Assembly (NCBI GenBank): GCA_934277435.1
Contig: CAKQUE010000006.1
Location: 3,395-67,394 of the forward strand
DNA length: 64,000 nucleotides
Origin: an uncultured Alphaproteobacteria bacterium
GTDB lineage: Bacteria > Pseudomonadota > Alphaproteobacteria > RF32 > CAG-239
Direction of reading: 5' to 3'
The notes under the pieces are model-generated. The model did not search any database. It worked only from the letters and a program-made list of their open reading frames with translations, and was not told the origin of the DNA. How positions within the stretch are numbered: the stretch's first letter is position 1; each line of letters opens with the position of its first letter. The position numbers were made by a program, and so were the translations under genes. Positions 1 through 33,664 of the stretch are shown here, piece by piece.

Positions 1-2733
1 TATAATAAAAATGGCTCGCTCTTTTCCGGCGCAGTCAAAAAGAAAGATGATGAAGGGCGTATGATAACCTATTTTTATCGCAACGGATTGCGCAACGGCA
101 TTACGTCAGCTCACTTTGAAGACGGTAAAATCGAGTTTGAGATAACTTATCGCAAAGGTCAAAAAGAAGGCGAAGAGATATATTTTTATGAAAATGGTAA
201 TCCTAAAGCCAAACGCACCTACAGCGCAGATGTCCAAAATGGTCCAGAAGTGTTGTATGACATAAACGGTCGCCCAACGCAGCAGAATAACTATGTTAAC
301 GGTTTATTGGACGGTGAAACAACATATTTTGACGCCAATGGTAATCGCACCAAAATAGAACACTATAAAGCCGGTATAAAAAATGGCGTAGAACATATAG
401 TTGTTGAAAATATGCTGCAAGAAGAAAATAATTATATCGACGGCAAAAAAAACGGCGTTACCAAAAAATATAATAAAGAATATCTGACCGATGAAATTAA
501 TTATACGGATAATCAAAAAAACGGTATTTGGCGACACTATAATCCGGACGGCAGTATTACGGAAATTCCTTATGAAAATGATGAAAAAAACGGTGTCGGC
601 GTGGCCTATTATCCAGATAAGACGATTGCCAACAGAGCGACTTATCTGAATGGCGTGAAAAACGGACTAAGTGAAAAGTTTTATAAAAACGGCAAACGCC
701 AAAGTGTTGAAACTTATAAAAATGACAAGTTGGAAGGTATCAGCCGATTTTTTGAAAAAGACGGTTCTCTGTTATATGTGAGCTATTATGTTGACGGTAT
801 GGAGTTGGCAACAGTTAATGTTATTAAAGATGATGAGTTGAGTGAAATTATCGCAGCACGCAAAAATAACACGTTAGGCAAGTTTGTTGCGCAAAAAGGC
901 TACTGGTACACTATTCTCTGGCTGGGGATAAATATGGAAGATGTCTCCATTTTGAAAGAGTTGGCAAAAAATATGAAAATGTATAATTTTGCTTTGGACG
1001 ACACGCAAGCGTATATAAAAGCCAATCAAAACAAATATAATAATCTGAACCGGCGGCTGTTTTTTGGCTTGAATCCATTGAGTTATGCGGTTGATTTATC
1101 TGCTCCAACGGAGATACTGCAAAACTTTGCAACCCCAAAACATATAAATGAAATTAATCCGCGCGGCGGAACGGCTCTGCAAGAAGCAATTCGCCTGAAT
1201 AATTTGAATATGGTCAAATATTTGCTGCTGCAGCAGGCAGATGTCAAAAAAAGTTATAAAAATATTGTTAGTCAAGCCATTGCGGAAAATGTTAATTCGC
1301 AGATTATTGAAGAATTACTCAAAGCCGGCGCTGATGTAAATGTTGGCGGACAAGAGGGGCAAACTCCTCTAGTAGCGGCAGTAAGGGCGAATAATGAGCG
1401 TTTGGTTGATTTGCTGCTAAAATATCATGCAGATGCAAACATTACTTTTGCTGATGGTAAAAATTTGCTGTTTTGGGCGGTAAGCAGTCATGATAACGCC
1501 AAAATTATTGATAGGCTGCTGGCAAGTGGCTTAGATGTAAATCAAAAAGATAATAACGGTAATGTGATGTTGCTTACGGCGTTAGCTATGCAAGATATTG
1601 ATTTAGTTGAAAAACTTTTGCGCAATGGCGCCGATGTGAATTTAGCTGACGCTTCAGGGGAGAGCGCCGCGACTTATGTTATCAATAACAATGTCGATGA
1701 CAAAGTTGTGCAGCAAATTTATAGCAAAGACATAGATGTATATAATAAAGTTGGTAAAGTTCAGCAGCCATTGTGGAAAATCTTGGCGGCCAAAGAAAAA
1801 TGGGAGTTGCTTAAAGCTGTTTTTGCCAAAATGGGCGGTGCAGATAAAGCTGATGTCAACGGAGATATACCGCTGTATACTCTAAATTTGTCAGAACAAG
1901 ATGTTTCTCCAGAATTTCAGCAATTGTTGTTGTCATATGTTACGCCGGAATGGCTGCAAGAAAATACTGTATTCATCTGGCAAACTGTTGAACATAAAAA
2001 TTATCAGTTGTGGCAAAAACTTGTGGAAATTGGGTTTAATCCAAATCTGAAAAATGCTTCAGAAACCAGCCTTGTATTTTATTTGCTGAAAAATAATTAT
2101 CCATCAGAATGGCTGGAAGAGCTAGAAAAATTGCAGCCGGATTTGAATGCGGCAGATAATAACGGGCAAACGCCGCTAGGTTTTGCTATCAAAGAAAATA
2201 ATTCTGAACTGGTACAAAATTTGCTGGCGCACGGCGCAAATGTTAATGATGAAAAACAAAAATATTTGCTGATGCTGAATTCCAACCAATCGAAAATAAC
2301 TTCTATTTTGCTGCAAAGCGGAGCGGATGTTGAAAAATTGCGACCGGATAACGGTACATTGCTGATGTCTGCGGTAGAAAATTTGAATGTTCCGCTGGTA
2401 AAGCATATAATAGAAAAAGGAACGAATATTCAAACTCGTGATAACGATGGTAATGTGGCAATTCATTATTTAAATACGGCGGTGGTCAAAAATTCGGCTT
2501 TATCGGCAGATGATTTGCTGGCAAAATTTACGAATGTATTGTCATTTTTGCTGCAAGGAGGGGCAGATATAAATGCCCAAAACGGCAATGGCGAAACTGT
2601 TTTGCTGCAGCTGGCCAAGCAGAAAAATGCGCTGTATAAACAGATATCTGAAATTTTGCAGGCGCATGGAGCCGACGTTTCTCTAAAAGACCAATACGGC
2701 AAAACGGCGTCAGACTATGCGCTTGGTATTTAA
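1..2733 (+). CDS. MORN/YwqK-type repeat plus ankyrin-repeat protein (5' end runs off the window)
   Basis: The frame is open from nt 1, so the ATG at 61 is internal. The N-terminal third has repeated 'Y..NG....E..Y.NG.K.G' units. The C-terminal two thirds have many 'G.TPL..A......V..LL..GADVN' ankyrin units. Confidence 0.8.
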   Translation, partial: YNKNGSLFSGAVKKKDDEGRMITYFYRNGLRNGITSAHFEDGKIEFEITYRKGQKEGEEIYFYENGNPKAKRTYSADVQNGPEVLYDINGRPTQQNNYVNGLLDGETTYFDANGNRTKIEHYKAGIKNGVEHIVVENMLQEENNYIDGKKNGVTKKYNKEYLTDEINYTDNQKNGIWRHYNPDGSITEIPYENDEKNGVGVAYYPDKTIANRATYLNGVKNGLSEKFYKNGKRQSVETYKNDKLEGISRFFEKDGSLLYVSYYVDGMELATVNVIKDDELSEIIAARKNNTLGKFVAQKGYWYTILWLGINMEDVSILKELAKNMKMYNFALDDTQAYIKANQNKYNNLNRRLFFGLNPLSYAVDLSAPTEILQNFATPKHINEINPRGGTALQEAIRLNNLNMVKYLLLQQADVKKSYKNIVSQAIAENVNSQIIEELLKAGADVNVGGQEGQTPLVAAVRANNERLVDLLLKYHADANITFADGKNLLFWAVSSHDNAKIIDRLLASGLDVNQKDNNGNVMLLTALAMQDIDLVEKLLRNGADVNLADASGESAATYVINNNVDDKVVQQIYSKDIDVYNKVGKVQQPLWKILAAKEKWELLKAVFAKMGGADKADVNGDIPLYTLNLSEQDVSPEFQQLLLSYVTPEWLQENTVFIWQTVEHKNYQLWQKLVEIGFNPNLKNASETSLVFYLLKNNYPSEWLEELEKLQPDLNAADNNGQTPLGFAIKENNSELVQNLLAHGANVNDEKQKYLLMLNSNQSKITSILLQSGADVEKLRPDNGTLLMSAVENLNVPLVKHIIEKGTNIQTRDNDGNVAIHYLNTAVVKNSALSADDLLAKFTNVLSFLLQGGADINAQNGNGETVLLQLAKQKNALYKQISEILQAHGADVSLKDQYGKTASDYALGI

Positions 2734-3347: not shown

Positions 3348-3479
3348 TAAAAAACTTCCATTATTTTGAGTTGCCTATATCAATTTTGGCAGCTCATGTA
3401 ATGGGAGTTTTTTTCATTTAATATAGAGCTTTTGAATTTTTCGCTTTACATTCAATTATCTTTCTTATAACCTAAAAAA

Positions 3480-3679
3480 AGACGGATTTTAGTCTGTCTA
3501 GGGCGTAGCAACCCTTTTATAACCAGTCGTTAAAGCATAAACGACTTAAATTTTATATGCCGATTTCTGCCAGTTAGGCGGATGTCGGCTGAATAAGGCT
3601 ATGTGCTGAATAAGCCGAGCCGTTTGGTTATATACGGTTTGCTAACATCCGCCCACTTTTGACAGTGGGTTTTATTTTA
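3480..3679 (+). promoter_or_regulatory. candidate structured 5' leader RNA (riboswitch/attenuator-like), copy 1
   Basis: It is homologous and nearly co-linear with 32790..32986. Shared hairpins are P1 3480-85/3494-99, P2 3500-03/3512-15, P3 3525-30/3541-46 and P4 3559-71/3577-89, and both carry a conserved CTGAATA. It ends in an intrinsic terminator about 25 nt before the pilin-like start codon. Confidence 0.6.
3652..3679 (+). terminator. intrinsic terminator inside leader copy 1
   Basis: CCCACT-tttgac-AGTGGG followed by TTTTATTTT. The segment 3645-3653 (ACATCCGCC) overlaps the 5' arm and is perfectly complementary to 3577-3585. Confidence 0.6.
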
Positions 3680-3703
3680 TGCAAAATAAACGGAGTTAGA
3701 AAT

Positions 3704-4327
3704 ATGTATAAACTAAAAAACAATAATATTGGTCGTTCTATGATAGAAATGCTTGGCGTGTTGGCGATTATCGGTGTGTTAAGTGTTGGTGGAATTGCCG
3801 GCTATTCCAAAGCTATGGAAAAGTTTAAATTGAATAAAACAGTTAGCGAATACAGTTATTTTATTTTCAATATGTTTGAACATGGTGATGAGTTTAAAAA
3901 ATTACCGGAGGGCACCGGATTGGCAAAATTAGCCGAACAGTTGGATTTATTGCCGGCGTCATGGAAATATATTGCTTCTAATAATAGTGAAAGATGGGTG
4001 CGAGATGGGCTTCAAAATAAAATACAGATGTGGCAGACTGGTGGTCATCTTGTTTTTGAAATATATTTACCCATAGATGAAAATGCCAAAAAACTTGACC
4101 TTTGCCGCAGTTTGTTGAAAGACTTTATCTATCCTTTGCACGATTTTGCCCTTTATGCCTTTGTTTGGCGAGTGCGCCCGGAAAAAGAAGATGAAGATTG
4201 GTGGGGGACAAATTATTGCGGAGGTGAACGAAAGTGTCTTAAAGACGTTACCGTTGCCGCCATGGATGCCGCTTGCCGAAGCTGTGTGGATTCACAAGGA
4301 GAATGCTCTATAGTGCTGACTTACTAA
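3704..4327 (+). CDS. prepilin-type N-terminal (type IV pilin / T2SS pseudopilin-like) protein, Cys-rich C-terminus
   Basis: The N-terminus 'MYKLKNNNIG|RSMIEMLGVLAIIGVLSVGGIAGY' has Gly-1, Glu+5 and a hydrophobic helix. GGAG lies 8-9 nt upstream of ATG 3704. The longer ORF-track start at 3659 would overlap the terminator. Confidence 0.75.
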   Translation: MYKLKNNNIGRSMIEMLGVLAIIGVLSVGGIAGYSKAMEKFKLNKTVSEYSYFIFNMFEHGDEFKKLPEGTGLAKLAEQLDLLPASWKYIASNNSERWVRDGLQNKIQMWQTGGHLVFEIYLPIDENAKKLDLCRSLLKDFIYPLHDFALYAFVWRVRPEKEDEDWWGTNYCGGERKCLKDVTVAAMDAACRSCVDSQGECSIVLTY

Positions 4328-24073: not shown

Positions 24074-24078
24074 TATAT

Positions 24079-24191
24079 GCGGCAACCGGCATTCTTGCGC
24101 CTGCCTTTCGTTTGCGGTCAAACTCACATCTGTGAGTTCTCGCCCTCGCTGCACAGCACTAATAAAACAAAAAAGGTCTCAAAAGAGACCT
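24079..24191. repeat. 113-bp GC-rich direct repeat, copy A
   Basis: Matches 24270..24382 with about 5 mismatches. It contains the hairpins AACTCACA/TGTGAGTT and AGGTCTC-aaaa-GAGACCT. Confidence 0.9.
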
Positions 24192-24269
24192 GAAATATTG
24201 TAAATCATTTTTTCAAAATGACGGCGGGACTGGCTGCGCTACGCTGCGCCGCCGCTTCACTCATTGCTT

Positions 24270-24382
24270 GCGGCAACCGGCATTCTTGCGTCTGCCTTTC
24301 GTTTGTGGTCAAACTCACATCTGTGAGTTCTCGCCCTCGCTGCACAGCGCCAATAAAACAAAAAAGGTCTCAAAAGAGACCT
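24270..24382. repeat. 113-bp GC-rich direct repeat, copy B (left arm of a palindrome with the tRNA-Arg 3' end)
   Basis: Bases 24352-24376 form a perfect 25-bp inverted repeat with 24381-24405, GCGCCAATAAAACAAAAAAGGTCTC/GAGACCTTTTTTGTTTTATTGGCGC. The right arm runs into the tRNA acceptor end. Confidence 0.9.
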
Positions 24383-24394
24383 TTTTTGTTTTAT

Positions 24395-24471
24395 TGGCGC
24401 GCTCGGCGGGACTCGAACTCACAACCTTCTGATCCGTAGTCAGATGCTCTATCCAATTAAGCTACGAGCGC
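24395..24471 (-). tRNA. tRNA-Arg (anticodon ACG)
   Basis: Hand-folded cloverleaf: acceptor GCGCTCG/CGAGCGC, anticodon loop CTACGGA, T-loop TTCGAGT, and an encoded CCA. There is one A:C mismatch in the T stem. Confidence 0.85.
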
Positions 24472-32754: not shown

Positions 32755-32783
32755 TTTACATTTTTTATTTTTACCATTACTTT
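32755..32783 (+). promoter_or_regulatory. possible promoter TTTACA-17-TACTTT for leader copy 2
   Basis: The -10 hexamer ends 6 nt before the conserved AGACAG at 32790. A TTTACA also precedes leader copy 1 (3445-3450), but with poorer spacing. Confidence 0.35.
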
Positions 32784-32789
32784 GAAACT

Positions 32790-32986
32790 AGACAGGCGAT
32801 AGTCTGTCTGGGGTGTGACAACCTCTATATATTCGTCTTAGTGTTAGACGTTAATCAAGCATACCTTCTGGTCTATATGGCTGGAAGGTAGCTGAATATG
32901 CTGTATGTAATATATAGCTAATAAGCTACACTATCTAATATATATAGTTGTCAACTTCCAGCTACCTCGTCGGTAGCTTTTTTGTT
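32790..32986 (+). promoter_or_regulatory. candidate structured 5' leader RNA (riboswitch/attenuator-like), copy 2
   Basis: It shares the architecture of 3480..3679: P1 32790-95/32804-09, P2 32810-13/32822-25, P3 32834-38/32846-50, P4 32863-68/32884-89, and CTGAATA at 32892-98, followed by a terminator. Confidence 0.6.
32961..32986 (+). terminator. intrinsic terminator inside leader copy 2
   Basis: GCTACC-tcgtc-GGTAGC followed by TTTTTTGTT. The segment 32955-32961 (CTTCCAG) is complementary to 32881-32887. Confidence 0.6.
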
Positions 32987-33013
32987 GTAATTTCAAAATG
33001 ATGGGAAGTAGTG

Positions 33014-33664
33014 ATGATTAATAATCAACATGGCCGCAGTATGATTGAAATGCTTGGCGTGCTGGCAATAATTGCTGTGTTAAGCGTTGGAGGTATCGCC
33101 GGATATTCAAAAGCTATGGAAAAATGGAAGGCTAATAAGCTGGTTTCGGAATATAGTTATTTAATATTTGGTTTAATGGATAAGGTGAATGAATTCCAAA
33201 ATATGTCAAAAGACACAGGCTATGACTCTCAAGTCGGTTTGAGTAATTATGTGCAATCGGCATCGTTAGTTCCTGAAACTTGGAAATATGCATCCTCAAC
33301 CAGAATGTATGATTCTGAGGGAAATCCGGTATTAATGTTTTCTAGAAGAAATCGTTTAGTCATAGATATTTATCTTGGAACTAAACTTAACTCTAATGGC
33401 TGGATATCCGGAAAATCAGAAGGATTTTCCTTAACTTTATGTCGTGAAGTTATGCTAAATTTGACTCAGCGCCTGAGTGACGTTGTGCAGTTTTCTAGGT
33501 TTTATCAATGGAGTAAAATGGAAAGTTCAGCTGTTTATTGGGGAAACACATCATGCCCTGCAGGGCAAAAATGTTTGCGAGACTTAACAGTTGCTGAAAT
33601 AAATGAAATATGCAAATCTTGCAAAAAAGACAATGAAGCTTGTGGCATAAATATGGAATTTTAG
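33014..33664 (+). CDS. prepilin-type N-terminal (pilin/pseudopilin-like) protein, Cys-rich C-terminus (paralogue 2)
   Basis: 'MINNQHG|RSMIEMLGVLAIIAVLSVGGIAGYSKAMEKWK'. The C-terminus 'C....QKCLRDLTVAE....CKSC......C' aligns with the 3704..4327 protein. Confidence 0.75.
   Translation: MINNQHGRSMIEMLGVLAIIAVLSVGGIAGYSKAMEKWKANKLVSEYSYLIFGLMDKVNEFQNMSKDTGYDSQVGLSNYVQSASLVPETWKYASSTRMYDSEGNPVLMFSRRNRLVIDIYLGTKLNSNGWISGKSEGFSLTLCREVMLNLTQRLSDVVQFSRFYQWSKMESSAVYWGNTSCPAGQKCLRDLTVAEINEICKSCKKDNEACGINMEF

What the first reader, a model, noticed from the sequence alone, without database searches (positions are those of the whole stretch)
32790..33013. Second copy of the leader: same alternative-pairing logic built from different nucleotides
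In copy 2 the P4 helix is ACCUUC/GAAGGU (32863-68/32884-89). The P4 3' side CUGGAAG (32881-87) can instead pair with CUUCCAG (32955-61), which overlaps the first base of the terminator stem GCUACC/GGUAGC. So the switch topology is preserved although both the P4 and terminator sequences differ completely from copy 1 (GCCGA..CUGCC/GGCGG..UCGGC and CCCACU/AGUGGG). Preserved architecture over diverged sequence is hard to explain by recent duplication alone. A TTTACA-17-TACTTT promoter would place the transcription start at the first conserved base.
Basis: seen in the sequence. Interest (0 to 1): 0.75.

Follow-up and report, generated by a model that had tools for sequence, protein, structure and literature searches.

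The report
C4-like switching leader before pilin genes
The stretch is a real, conserved RNA leader in front of a pilin-like gene that can fold in two mutually exclusive ways around a transcription terminator, and it is built like the phage P1 C4 antisense-RNA precursor, a use of that design I found no description of.

Summary
The same layout recurs in about 70 homologous leaders from uncultured gut Alphaproteobacteria. They fall into two old subtypes: type A is window copy 1, type B is copy 2. Both the P4 hairpin and the "alternative helix" are kept, with compensating changes, including three- and four-way covariation among P4, the shared strand and both terminator arms in type B.

The alternative helix is the closing stem of a three-way junction. 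Its layout matches phage P1 C4 antisense RNA. The 5' half matches P1's a1/b1 motif. Two locus-specific segments in the 5' half pair with the junction strand and with the loop of hairpin 2.

The predicted lowest-energy fold (P4, a long 5'-3' rod and the terminator) should terminate transcription. The C4-like fold invades the terminator in type B and should allow read-through into a type IV pilin-like gene. What flips the switch is unknown.

The leader reaches no Rfam gathering score, and a reciprocal model search failed. I call it a new variant of a known kind, not a proven C4 family member. No a2/b2-type target lies downstream. There is no phage context.

The parts
32755..32783 (+). Sigma-70-type promoter of leader copy 2: -35 TTTACA (32755-60), 17-nt spacer, -10 TACTTT (32778-83)
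   Evidence: Read from the sequence. CTTTAC[A/T]-17-TAnnnT sits at the same distance from the 5' box in most of 35 homologous leaders by eye. No transcript data.
32790..32809 (+). P1 hairpin AGACAGGC-GAUA-GUCUGUCU, at the inferred 5' end of the transcript
   Evidence: MFE. All 7 pairs show changes on both sides; 98.8% of cells paired.
32810..32825 (+). 5' box: small hairpin GGGG/CCUC whose loop UGUGACAA carries the variable triplet GAC (32817-19). This is the counterpart of a1 in phage P1.
   Evidence: The triplet is complementary to the J triplet in 35/35 and 59/60 leaders. The helix at columns 30-35/229-235, which was not in the covariance model, is 99.1% paired. P1's c4-a1b1 has the same hairpin-plus-loop layout.
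32825..32833 (+). Locus-specific linker CUAUAUAUU, complementary to the P6 loop. This is the counterpart of b1.
   Evidence: Longest Watson-Crick run between linker and own P6 loop averages 9.1 nt (range 6-15), against 5.1 nt for loops of other loci.
32834..32850 (+). P3 hairpin CGUCU...AGACG
   Evidence: MFE. All 6 pairs show changes on both sides; 93.8% paired. Absent in divergent member L056.
32863..32873 (+). P4 5' arm ACCUUCUGGUC. It sequesters the shared strand and so acts as an anti-antiterminator.
   Evidence: A P4 hairpin is predicted in 35/35 leaders, dG -10 to -22 kcal/mol. 98.3% paired in type B with compensatory changes.
32878..32889 (+). Shared strand UGGCUGGAAGGU. It is the 3' arm of P4 (32879-89), or the 5' strand of the outer stem (32878-87) plus the first 2 nt of P5.
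   Evidence: Read from the sequence. Columns 25 and 27 of A7 covary with both partners. GGA-G is invariant in all leaders.
32888..32929 (+). P5 hairpin (GUAGCU 32888-93 with AGCUAC 24-29 of 329xx) with conserved A-rich internal loops (GAAUAUG ... CUAAUAAG)
   Evidence: All 6 pairs show changes on both sides; 98.6% paired. 100% paired within type B.
32931..32947 (+). P6 hairpin (CUAU/AUAG). Its loop is complementary to the linker and is the counterpart of b' in C4.
   Evidence: All 4 stem pairs covary. Loop-linker complementarity.
32948..32955 (+). Junction strand UUGUCAAC with triplet GUC (32950-52), complementary to the 5' box. This is the counterpart of a' in C4.
   Evidence: In P1 the junction strand is CUGUCAA, which is a'.
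32955..32964 (+). Its last 4-5 nt are the 5' arm of the terminator.
   Evidence: Outer stem is 8-11 bp in 26/26 type B leaders and overlaps the terminator by 2-5 nt in 24/24 evaluable.
32960..32984 (+). Intrinsic terminator AGCUACC-UCGUC-GGUAGCU plus U6
   Evidence: Terminator scan. 100% paired in type B, with 4 of 6 pairs covarying.
33003..33664 (+). Shine-Dalgarno-like GGGAAG (33003-08) and the regulated ORF (ATG 33014 to stop 33664). The product is a 216-aa type IV pilin-like protein with a prepilin motif G|RSMIEMLGVLAII.
   Evidence: ORF list. Sub-threshold N_methyl and prepilin-peptidase-dependent pilin matches. 6686 homologues.
3445..3703 (+). Leader copy 1 (type A).
- Promoter: TTTACA 3445-50, TAACCT 3468-73.
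- P1: 3480-99. 5' box triplet AGC: 3507-09. Linker UAUAACCA: 3518-25.
- P3: 3525-46. P4: 3559-71 with 3577-89.
- Outer stem: 3577-84 with 3646-53. P5: 3585-90 with 3613-18. P6: 3619-23 with 3634-38.
- J triplet GCU: 3641-43. Terminator: 3651-70.
   Evidence: R1 scores 191 bits. Sub-threshold Rfam hits to sRNA-Xcc1 and C4 at 3563-3662.
3704..4327 (+). Paralogous pilin-like ORF downstream of copy 1 (39% amino-acid identity to the copy 2 ORF)

Best explanation
The region 32790-33013 is the roughly 195-nt 5' leader of a type IV pilin-like gene. It is transcribed from its own conserved sigma-70-type promoter. It belongs to a multi-copy leader family with two subtypes in uncultured gut Alphaproteobacteria.

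The RNA has the anatomy of the phage P1 c4 precursor:
- a 5' hairpin;
- a small hairpin that presents a variable triplet in its loop (a1-like);
- a locus-specific single-stranded linker (b1-like);
- a three-way junction made of an outer stem starting GGA, hairpin P5, and hairpin P6, whose loop pairs with the linker (b'-like);
- a junction strand that pairs with the triplet (a'-like).

Unlike P1, the junction is fused directly to an intrinsic terminator 25-35 nt before the start codon. There is also an extra upstream arm (P4 5' arm) complementary to the 5' strand of the outer stem.

Two exclusive folds result.
- Fold I is the predicted ground state. It contains the P4 hairpin, a long 5'-3' rod (triplet box with junction strand, linker with P6 loop) and an intact terminator. 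It should end transcription before the gene (OFF).
- Fold II is the C4-like junction. In type B, which includes copy 2, its outer stem takes 2-5 nt of the terminator 5' arm. This should weaken the terminator and allow read-through (ON).

Shown here: the helices, their mutual exclusivity, their covariation, the predicted energetics, and the link to pilin-like genes.

Inferred: that termination is the regulated step. Also inferred: that a factor which sequesters or removes the 5' half (a trans RNA, a protein, or processing, for example by RNase P at the GGA as for C4) flips the switch. The trigger itself is unknown.
For: - Helices at the stated coordinates. MFE equals Fold I with z = -5.8 and -6.8.
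- Family: nhmmer and covariance model R1 find 35 strong copies plus divergent ones near pilin-like genes in genome contigs. They find 32 more in metagenome contigs.
- Covariation: 98.2% of cells paired against 77.6% in shuffles, and 36 of 41 pairs change on both sides.
- The triplet pairing was not in the model. It is complementary in 35/35 and 59/60 leaders, with 10 different triplets.
- Linker to own loop averages 9.1 nt, against 5.1 nt for other loci.
- P4 is predicted in 35/35 leaders.
- Within type B, on a structure-blind alignment, both P4 plus terminator (99.0% paired) and outer stem plus P5 plus P6 (97.7%) hold. Shared columns 25 and 27 compensate with both partners. Column 110 pairs with column 25 and with terminator column 128.
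- Energetics: forcing the outer stem costs about +10.5 kcal/mol in type B and +20 in type A. It abolishes the terminator in 10 and weakens it in 4 of 15 type B leaders. Without the 5' half, the two folds of type B are nearly isoenergetic, +1.6 kcal/mol.
- Position: 70 of 74 model hits have the prepilin motif downstream on the same strand, 50 of them 45-62 nt from the 3' end of the model match. The promoter is positionally conserved.
- P1 comparison: the annotated a1, b1, c4, a2 and b2 sites and the Rfam C4 and c4-a1b1 alignments show the same nested topology.
- Sub-threshold Rfam hits of type A 3' domains to sRNA-Xcc1 (25-33 bits) and C4 (about 23 bits).
Against: - No transcript, termination or probing data exist. 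Every functional step is inferred.
- Fold I is favoured by 10-20 kcal/mol, even in transcripts cut before the terminator 3' arm. Read-through therefore needs an unknown factor.
- In type A the outer stem does not touch the terminator in 19 of 25 evaluable leaders. Forcing the outer stem leaves the terminator intact in 17 of 20. The antiterminator logic is demonstrated comparatively only for type B.
- Most A-versus-B differences may reflect a single ancient event, so the number of independent compensatory events in P4 and the outer stem is modest.
- The loci were fetched through the pilin protein, so the exclusive link to pilin genes is subject to ascertainment bias.
- The C4 relationship rests on layout and sub-threshold scores. 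The reciprocal search with a 3'-domain model did not find P1 c4.
Confidence: 0.55

Rival explanations
1. The leader is mainly a gene for a C4-type small RNA. It ends at its own terminator, is perhaps trimmed by RNase P at the GGA, and acts in trans by antisense pairing through the P6 loop and the junction strand. The 5' half (a1/b1-like) is only a masking pro-sequence or decoy. The pilin gene is expressed by leak-through or is the indirect target.
For: - Layout equals C4 plus a1b1.
- Characterised or proposed relatives are small RNAs placed upstream of the gene they control: C4 before icd/ant, and sRNA-Xcc1 before symE (bioRxiv 10.1101/2025.06.18.660453).
- Acinetobacter baumannii carries 21 C4-like sRNAs with a variable a' loop, processed at GGW (PMC5320573).
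- The terminators look strong, and in type A no structure opposes them.
- A-rich ARN-like internal loops plus a U tail would suit Hfq. This point rests on my own knowledge and was not tested.
Against: - No a2/b2-type second copy of the linker or triplet box was found within 140 nt downstream or within 1.5 kb on either side. None was found in the 64-kb window; the one hit, at 46008-55, lies inside a DNA polymerase IV-like CDS.
- The pairing elements are masked in cis in the ground state.
- The terminator-to-ATG distance is fixed at 25-35 nt, with no room for another promoter.
- In type B the three-way covariation ties the junction stem to the terminator arm. A free-standing sRNA has no need for this.
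Confidence: 0.2
2. It is one static structure (Fold I). It serves as a constitutive terminator, insulator or stability element. The complementarity of the 'alternative helix' is a relic of descent from a C4-like RNA and is not a working switch.
For: Fold I is the MFE by 10-20 kcal/mol in nearly all copies and at all tested transcript lengths. In type A the outer stem and the terminator are compatible.
Against: - P5, P6 and the outer stem exist only in Fold II, yet they are 95-100% paired with compensatory changes, including within type B alone.
- Relics decay, as the degraded copy in L036 shows.
- A constitutive terminator 25-35 nt before the start codon would silence every one of these genes.
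Confidence: 0.12
3. It is a small-molecule riboswitch. A ligand binds the three-way junction or the P5 internal loops, stabilises Fold II and gives read-through.
For: The terminator, antiterminator and anti-antiterminator layout is typical of riboswitch expression platforms. The P5 internal loops and the junction contain conserved unpaired bases.
Against: - No Rfam riboswitch family matches, even at E = 10.
- The most conserved bases lie in strands that have two alternative partners, not in a pocket.
- The regulated genes are a large paralogous pilin-like family, not a metabolic or transport pathway.
- A ligand would have to pay 10-20 kcal/mol.
- The locus-specific long-range pairs are unlike known aptamers.
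Confidence: 0.06
4. The conservation is at the DNA level. Promoter, leader and the 5' end of the coding sequence are kept similar by gene conversion among pilin paralogues, in the way of a pilE/pilS-type variation system. The RNA folds are incidental.
For: The leader and the first 180 nt of the ORF are the most similar parts of the two loci (70% over 182 nt). Many assemblies break at these genes. The family is highly expanded.
Against: Gene conversion would homogenise sequence. It would not produce perfectly compensated, locus-specific pairs 110-130 nt apart. Paralogues within one genome carry different triplet-plus-linker combinations, while orthologues in other MAGs share them.
Confidence: 0.04

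Closest known systems
Phage P1/P7 immI c4 precursor: c4-a1b1 motif (Rfam RF03163) plus C4 antisense RNA (RF01695)
   Same: - The order and nesting of elements are the same. A 5' hairpin comes first, then a small hairpin with a1 in its loop, then single-stranded b1, a spacer with a hairpin, and a three-way junction.
- In the junction, the hairpin 2 loop (b') pairs with b1 and the junction strand (a') pairs with a1.
- The outer stem starts with GGW.
- The flanks of the junction strand are alike: UU-NNN-AAC here, CUGUCAAC in P1.
- The pairing elements are the variable, specificity-giving parts.
- The RNA lies upstream of, and on the same strand as, the gene it controls.
(PMC5320573; PMC12197685.)
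   Different: - There is no a2/b2 target at the downstream ribosome-binding site.
- The outer stem is 6-11 bp rather than about 18 bp, so the C4 fold is not the ground state.
- An extra P4 arm competes for the outer stem.
- Hairpin 1 is long with A-rich internal loops, not a UUCG tetraloop hairpin.
- An intrinsic terminator abuts the junction.
- The context is chromosomal and non-phage.
- The leader is multi-copy, before pilin-like genes.
- Rfam scores are below gathering and the reciprocal model search is negative.
sRNA-Xcc1 (Rfam RF02221, listed in the same clan CL00128 as C4)
   Same: This is the best Rfam match of the type A 3' domain (25-33 bits). It has the same outer stem and two-hairpin layout. 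It also has AAUA...GAAUAA motifs in hairpin 1. It sits upstream of the gene it is thought to control (symE) in integron cassettes.
   Different: Scores are below the gathering score of 53. Type B gives no hit. sRNA-Xcc1 is described as a trans-acting sRNA in Xanthomonas integrons, not as a leader with a competing P4 arm and a terminator overlap.
Acinetobacter baumannii Group 1 C4-like sRNAs (PMC5320573)
   Same: Many paralogous C4-like RNAs occur in one bacterial chromosome. They have a 5' extension, a GGW start and a variable a' loop.
   Different: They pass the Rfam C4 model and are reported as free-standing, highly expressed, processed sRNAs. No fixed downstream gene family, no cis-complementary 5' elements and no terminator competition are described.
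Antisense-RNA-driven transcription attenuation of plasmids pT181 and pIP501 (own knowledge, not tested here)
   Same: The logic is the same: a 'pre-emptor' strand pairs with the terminator 5' arm unless it is sequestered, and sequestration causes termination.
   Different: There the sequestering RNA is a separate countertranscript. Here the sequestering arms (the P4 5' arm and the 5' box) are built into the same molecule.
Terminator/antiterminator expression platforms of riboswitches and T-box leaders
   Same: Three-part competition among anti-antiterminator (P4), antiterminator (outer stem) and terminator, placed just before the start codon.
   Different: No recognisable aptamer or tRNA-binding module is present. 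Long locus-specific 5'-3' pairing dominates the fold.

Membership tests
C4 antisense RNA (Rfam RF01695) | Reaches the Rfam gathering score (45 bits) | tested here: not met
   Copy 1: 23.4 bits. L009: 22.8 bits. Copy 2 and other type B: no hit at E <= 10. P1 c4 itself scores 68.8 bits.
C4 antisense RNA (Rfam RF01695) | Three-way junction: outer stem, hairpin 1, hairpin 2, and a single-stranded junction strand before the 3' strand of the outer stem | tested here: met
   RNAalifold consensus. Outer stem, P5 and P6 are 98-99% paired with compensatory changes. The same holds within type B alone.
C4 antisense RNA (Rfam RF01695) | Variable hairpin 2 loop and junction strand complementary to upstream a1/b1 sites on the same transcript | tested here: met
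   Triplet complementary in 59/60 leaders. Linker to own loop 9.1 nt against 5.1 nt for other loci. Same nesting as the annotated P1 sites.
C4 antisense RNA (Rfam RF01695) | Second target copy (a2/b2) downstream, overlapping the ribosome-binding site of the repressed gene | tested here: not met
   No second copy within 140 nt downstream, within 1.5 kb on either side, or in the 64-kb window.
C4 antisense RNA (Rfam RF01695) | Reciprocal similarity: a model of this family's 3' domain finds P1 c4 | tested here: not met
   R2 (73 positions, 20 bp), with filters off, gives no hit at L082 444-520. The best hit anywhere in the sequence searched (L082 plus P1 positions 50001-94800, about half the genome) is 13 bits.
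C4 antisense RNA (Rfam RF01695) | Matured from a longer transcript by RNase P at the GGW that starts the outer stem | not testable with these tools
   GGA(U/A)G is invariant at the start of the outer stem. No cleavage data.
C4 antisense RNA (Rfam RF01695) | Phage or prophage context | tested here: not met
   Neighbours are lolCD-like, ftsB, dsbD, UDG, an outer-membrane protein, clpB and CoA-transferase genes. No type A pattern match in IMG/VR. The 5 type B pattern matches are not leaders.
c4-a1b1 motif (Rfam RF03163) | Reaches the gathering score (46.7 bits) | tested here: not met
   No hit at E <= 10 in either leader. P1 scores 51 bits.
c4-a1b1 motif (Rfam RF03163) | A hairpin directly followed by a small hairpin with a1 in its loop, then single-stranded b1 | tested here: inconclusive
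   P1 hairpin plus GGG(G)/CC(U)C hairpin with the triplet in an 8-nt loop, followed by the linker. The P1 hairpin covaries. The small hairpin varies mostly on one side and competes with the rod.
sRNA-Xcc1 (Rfam RF02221) | Reaches the gathering score (53 bits) | tested here: not met
   Type A scores 25-33.2 bits. Type B gives no hit.
Intrinsic-terminator attenuator (terminator/antiterminator leader) | G+C-rich hairpin plus U tract shortly before the start codon | tested here: met
   100% paired with 4 of 6 pairs covarying. Start codon about 25-35 nt after the U tract; prepilin motif 45-62 nt after the 3' end of the model match in 50 leaders.
Intrinsic-terminator attenuator (terminator/antiterminator leader) | A conserved alternative helix that uses part of the terminator stem | tested here: met
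   Type B: 2-5 nt overlap in 24/24 evaluable leaders, with covariation. Type A: 0 nt in 19/25, so not met for that subtype.
Intrinsic-terminator attenuator (terminator/antiterminator leader) | Termination and regulated read-through actually occur | not testable with these tools
   Needs transcription assays or transcript-end mapping.
Known riboswitch classes (Rfam) | Match to any aptamer model | tested here: not met
   No riboswitch family at E <= 10 in either leader.

The most novel reading that the evidence does not exclude
Each of the several leader-bearing pilin-like paralogues in a genome (4-7 were seen per MAG) carries its own 'address': a triplet plus an 8-15 nt linker, matched by the junction strand and P6 loop of the same leader.

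Suppose the 3' domain is released, for example by RNase P at the GGA. It could then pair in trans only with nascent transcripts of its own locus. That would free their outer stem and give locus-specific positive feedback. The result would be heritable ON/OFF states of individual pilin variants without any DNA change, that is, RNA-based phase variation built from a domesticated phage immunity RNA.

The evidence does not exclude this. Addresses differ among paralogues of one genome and are shared by orthologues. Removing the 5' half makes the two folds of type B nearly isoenergetic.
Probability: 0.1. Interest if true: 0.9.

Novelty: new variant of a known kind. Interest (0 to 1): 0.68.

Why it matters
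- It would add a well-supported, abundant structured RNA family to a poorly known lineage, uncultured gut Alphaproteobacteria, and tie it to a very large unannotated pilin-like gene family.
- It would show the C4 antisense design, so far known as a phage immunity RNA and as free sRNAs, reused as a self-contained cis-acting leader. In this leader the antisense target is inside the same molecule and the output is an intrinsic terminator.
- It offers a clean system, with two natural subtypes and dozens of natural variants, for testing how long-range RNA pairing sets a transcription decision.
- It raises the testable idea of locus-specific RNA addressing within a multigene surface-protein family.

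Tried and rejected
1. Rfam at gathering score finds only two tRNAs in the window. At E <= 10 only sub-threshold C4 and sRNA-Xcc1 hits appear, and only for type A.
2. Full-length model R1 and 3'-domain model R2, run against the P1 immI region and about half of the P1 genome, give no hit on c4. Homology to C4 is therefore not shown by sequence.
3. Search for a2/b2-type targets. None lies downstream or within 1.5 kb on either side. The only window candidate, GUGACAA-20 nt-UAUAUAUU at 46008-55, lies inside a DinB-like CDS and was judged to be chance.
4. Phage link. No type A pattern match in IMG/VR, and the 5 type B pattern matches are not leaders.
5. Leader peptide. The mini-ORFs (type A: AUG UCG GCU GAA UAA; copy 2: AUG GCU GGA AGG UAG and an SD-like GGAAGGU followed by AUG) are not conserved between or within the subtypes, judged by eye. 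Rejected.
6. CsrA site. The invariant GGA is paired in both folds. Rejected.
7. A 'master' RNA complementary to the P4 arm or the shared strand: none elsewhere in the window.
8. The R1 hit at window 24161-24332(-) (28.5 bits) is a tRNA-adjacent tandem duplication, not a leader.
9. MAFFT misaligns the P4 5' arm between subtypes by 3 columns. P4 was therefore tested per sequence and within type B only.
10. The original C4 papers (PMC41593, PMC312442) are not held.
Full report
**1. What is in the sequence**

- ACCUUC (32863-68) pairs with GAAGGU (32884-89). The hairpin extends to 11 bp (32863-73 with 32879-89).
- CUGGAAG (32881-87) is complementary to CUUCCAG (32955-61). This helix extends to 10 bp (32878-87 with 32955-64).
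- The terminator is AGCUACC (32960-66), GGUAGCU (32972-78) and U6. The extended alternative helix consumes 4-5 nt of the terminator's 5' arm.
- TTTACA (32755-60), 17 nt, TACTTT (32778-83) puts the start near A32790.
- The leader ends at the ATG (33014) of a 216-aa ORF with a prepilin-type N-terminus, G|RSMIEMLGVLAII.
- Copy 1 lies at 3480-3703, before a paralogue with 39% amino-acid identity.
- Both leaders fold far better than dinucleotide shuffles (z = -5.8 and -6.8).

**2. It is a family, in two old subtypes**

The pilin-like protein has 6686 homologues, all from uncultured, mostly gut, Alphaproteobacteria. A scan of species-representative genomes found more than 580 copies, with many paralogues per MAG.

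An HMM made from the two window leaders found the leader upstream of about 35 of 80 loci. Covariance model R1 confirmed these and added divergent copies L071, L056, L027 and a decayed one in L036. A metagenome scan added 32 more.

The leaders split cleanly into type A (like copy 1) and type B (like copy 2). The two window copies are therefore not recent duplicates. They are members of two lineages, each conserved across several species.

The promoter is conserved in position. Of 74 model hits, 70 have the prepilin motif downstream on the same strand. Fifty of these lie 45-62 nt from the 3' end of the model match. The rest have in-frame insertions in the N-terminal region.

Caveat: the loci were fetched through the protein, so exclusivity of the association is not proven. 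Within the unbiased 64-kb window there are two pilin-like genes and two leaders.

**3. Structure and covariation**

On the model-based alignment of 37 leaders, 98.2% of cells are paired, against 77.6% in shuffles and 31-45% when partners are slid. Thirty-six of 41 pairs change on both sides.

- A variable triplet in the 5' box (GU-NNN-AA) is complementary to a triplet in the junction strand (UU-N'N'N'-AAC). This holds in 35/35 and then 59/60 leaders, with ten different triplets. This helix was not part of the model, yet it is 99.1% paired.
- The linker after the 5' box is complementary to the P6 loop of the same leader. The run averages 9.1 nt (range 6-15), against 5.1 nt for loops of other loci.

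Because the whole P6 loop is used, this pairing and the P6 stem cannot coexist (inference from pseudoknot geometry).

**4. Two exclusive folds**

Fold I is the MFE of nearly all copies. It has P4, a 20-28 bp interrupted rod (5' box with junction strand and the start of the outer 3' strand; linker with P6 loop) and the terminator.

Fold II has the outer stem, P5 and P6. It frees the 5' half.

P4 is predicted in 35/35 leaders.

Within type B alone (24 distinct sequences, MAFFT alignment) both folds are maintained. P4 plus terminator is 99.0% paired. Outer stem plus P5 plus P6 is 97.7% paired. Several positions satisfy more than one partner at once:
- Column 25 of the shared strand pairs with column 17 (P4) and with column 110 (outer stem).
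- Column 110 also pairs with terminator column 128.
- Column 27 pairs with columns 15 and 108.

That is the comparative signature of a designed competition.

In type B the outer stem is 8-11 bp and overlaps the terminator by 2-5 nt in 24/24 evaluable leaders. In type A it is 6-8 bp with no overlap in 19/25.

Forcing the outer stem removes the terminator in 10 and weakens it in 4 of 15 type B leaders. It leaves the terminator intact in 17 of 20 type A leaders.

Fold I is favoured by about 10 kcal/mol (type B) and 20 kcal/mol (type A). Without the 5' half, the type B folds differ by only +1.6 kcal/mol.

**5. What it resembles**

The only Rfam signals are sub-threshold hits of type A 3' domains to sRNA-Xcc1 (25-33 bits, gathering score 53) and C4 antisense RNA (about 23 bits, gathering score 45).

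I fetched the P1 immI region, with its annotated a1, b1, c4, a2 and b2 sites. I ran Rfam on it: C4 scores 68.8 bits and c4-a1b1 scores 51 bits.

The layouts match feature for feature.
- P1 has a hairpin, then a small hairpin with a1 in the loop, then single-stranded b1, a spacer hairpin, and a three-way junction. In the junction, the hairpin 2 loop is b' and the junction strand (CUGUCAA) is a'.
- Here the P1 hairpin, the GGG/CCC hairpin with the triplet, the linker, P3, and the junction with P6 loop and UU-NNN-AAC strand occupy the same places with the same nesting.
- The outer stem starts with GGA, like the GGW RNase P site of C4 (PMC5320573).
- Relatives of C4 also sit upstream of the gene they control: icd/ant in P1, and symE for sRNA-Xcc1. 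Acinetobacter baumannii has 21 C4-like sRNAs with a variable a' loop.

**6. Where it differs, and why I do not file it as a C4 member**

- The gathering scores are not reached.
- Type B gives no Rfam hit at all.
- My 3'-domain model R2 does not find P1 c4, nor does R1.
- There is no a2/b2 target at the downstream ribosome-binding site or nearby.
- The outer stem is short, so unlike P1 the C4 fold is not the ground state.
- There is an extra competing arm (P4), a fused intrinsic terminator, and a chromosomal, non-phage context.

Distant homology and convergence cannot be told apart with the tools at hand. The statement 'it is built like C4 plus a1b1' is well supported. The statement 'it is a C4 family member' is not.

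**7. Mechanism**

The best-supported reading is a cis-acting attenuator. By default the 5' half locks the antiterminator twice: the P4 arm takes the 5' strand of the outer stem, and the 5' box takes its 3' strand. The terminator then forms and the pilin-like gene stays off. Anything that sequesters, unwinds or removes the 5' half lets the junction form. In type B the junction opens the terminator.

The hypervariable segments need not be 'addresses'. They are the strands with only one partner, whereas the invariant strands each have two partners. That alone explains the conservation pattern. The trigger is unknown.

Rivals are a trans-acting C4-type sRNA, a static structure, a metabolite riboswitch, and DNA-level gene conversion. 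They are weighed in the rival section.

For type A the link to the terminator is not shown.

**8. Novelty**

I found no paper linking C4-type RNAs to pilin genes or describing this leader, and it is absent from Rfam 15. I rate it a new variant of a known kind. The finding is of good but not exceptional interest, because every functional step still needs experiment.

Noticed in passing
window 24078-24382 (minus-strand context, next to tRNA 24398-24471): A 191-bp tandem duplication (96% identical) lies directly downstream of a tRNA gene. Each unit ends in the hairpin GGTCTCTTTTGAGACC plus a T run, and a piece resembling a tRNA 3' end lies between the two copies. It may be the scar of an integration site. 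It gave a weak, probably spurious hit to the leader model (28.5 bits).
   Followed up: partly
window 3704-4327 and 33014-33664; loci L001-L167: The pilin-like protein family (prepilin motif GRSMIEMLGVLAII, 4-6 conserved C-terminal cysteines, no Pfam domain above threshold) is hugely expanded. It has 6686 homologues and many paralogues per gut alphaproteobacterial MAG. Assemblies often break at these genes.
   Followed up: partly
L015 1262-1510, L035, L042, L045, L054 (between the start codon and the GRSMIEML motif): Several paralogues carry long in-frame insertions in the N-terminal propeptide. These read like translated repeat elements (for example SVILRRYSLPEVPWRRIYNVIAKVM and LLRVARNDA). 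They could be pseudogenes, or could encode unusually long leader peptides.
   Followed up: no
L002, L025, L029, L033, L040, L055 (about 100-200 nt upstream of the pilin motif): Pilin-like loci without the A/B leader share a different upstream element: the hairpin GTGTGTAAAAATAACGGTCGTTTTTTTTACAC followed by GGAGGAATAAGATG. This may be a second kind of leader for the same gene family.
   Followed up: no
L056 1297-1475, L027 ~1200-1472, L036 496-658 (minus): Divergent versions of the leader. L056 lacks P3 but keeps the triplet and 9-bp box pairing, P4-like pairing, P5 and P6. L027 lacks P5 and has extra hairpins. L036 looks like a decayed copy with P5 deleted.
   Followed up: partly
L082 (phage P1 AF234172) ~429-437 versus ~448-456: In P1 the sequence GUUACGCCC just upstream of c4 is complementary to GGGCGUGAU in the 5' strand of the C4 outer stem. 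This is a possible counterpart of the P4 competitor. It is not part of the MFE of the P1 precursor.
   Followed up: no
window 3582-3596: The type A shared strand contains a conserved mini-ORF, AUG UCG GCU GAA UAA. It is not conserved in type B, so it is probably a by-product of the invariant GGAUG.
   Followed up: partly
window 61-2733: An 890-aa protein with MORN and many ankyrin repeats lies upstream of copy 1. I would not have expected this in a free-living gut bacterium; it is reminiscent of host-associated Alphaproteobacteria (own impression, not checked).
   Followed up: no
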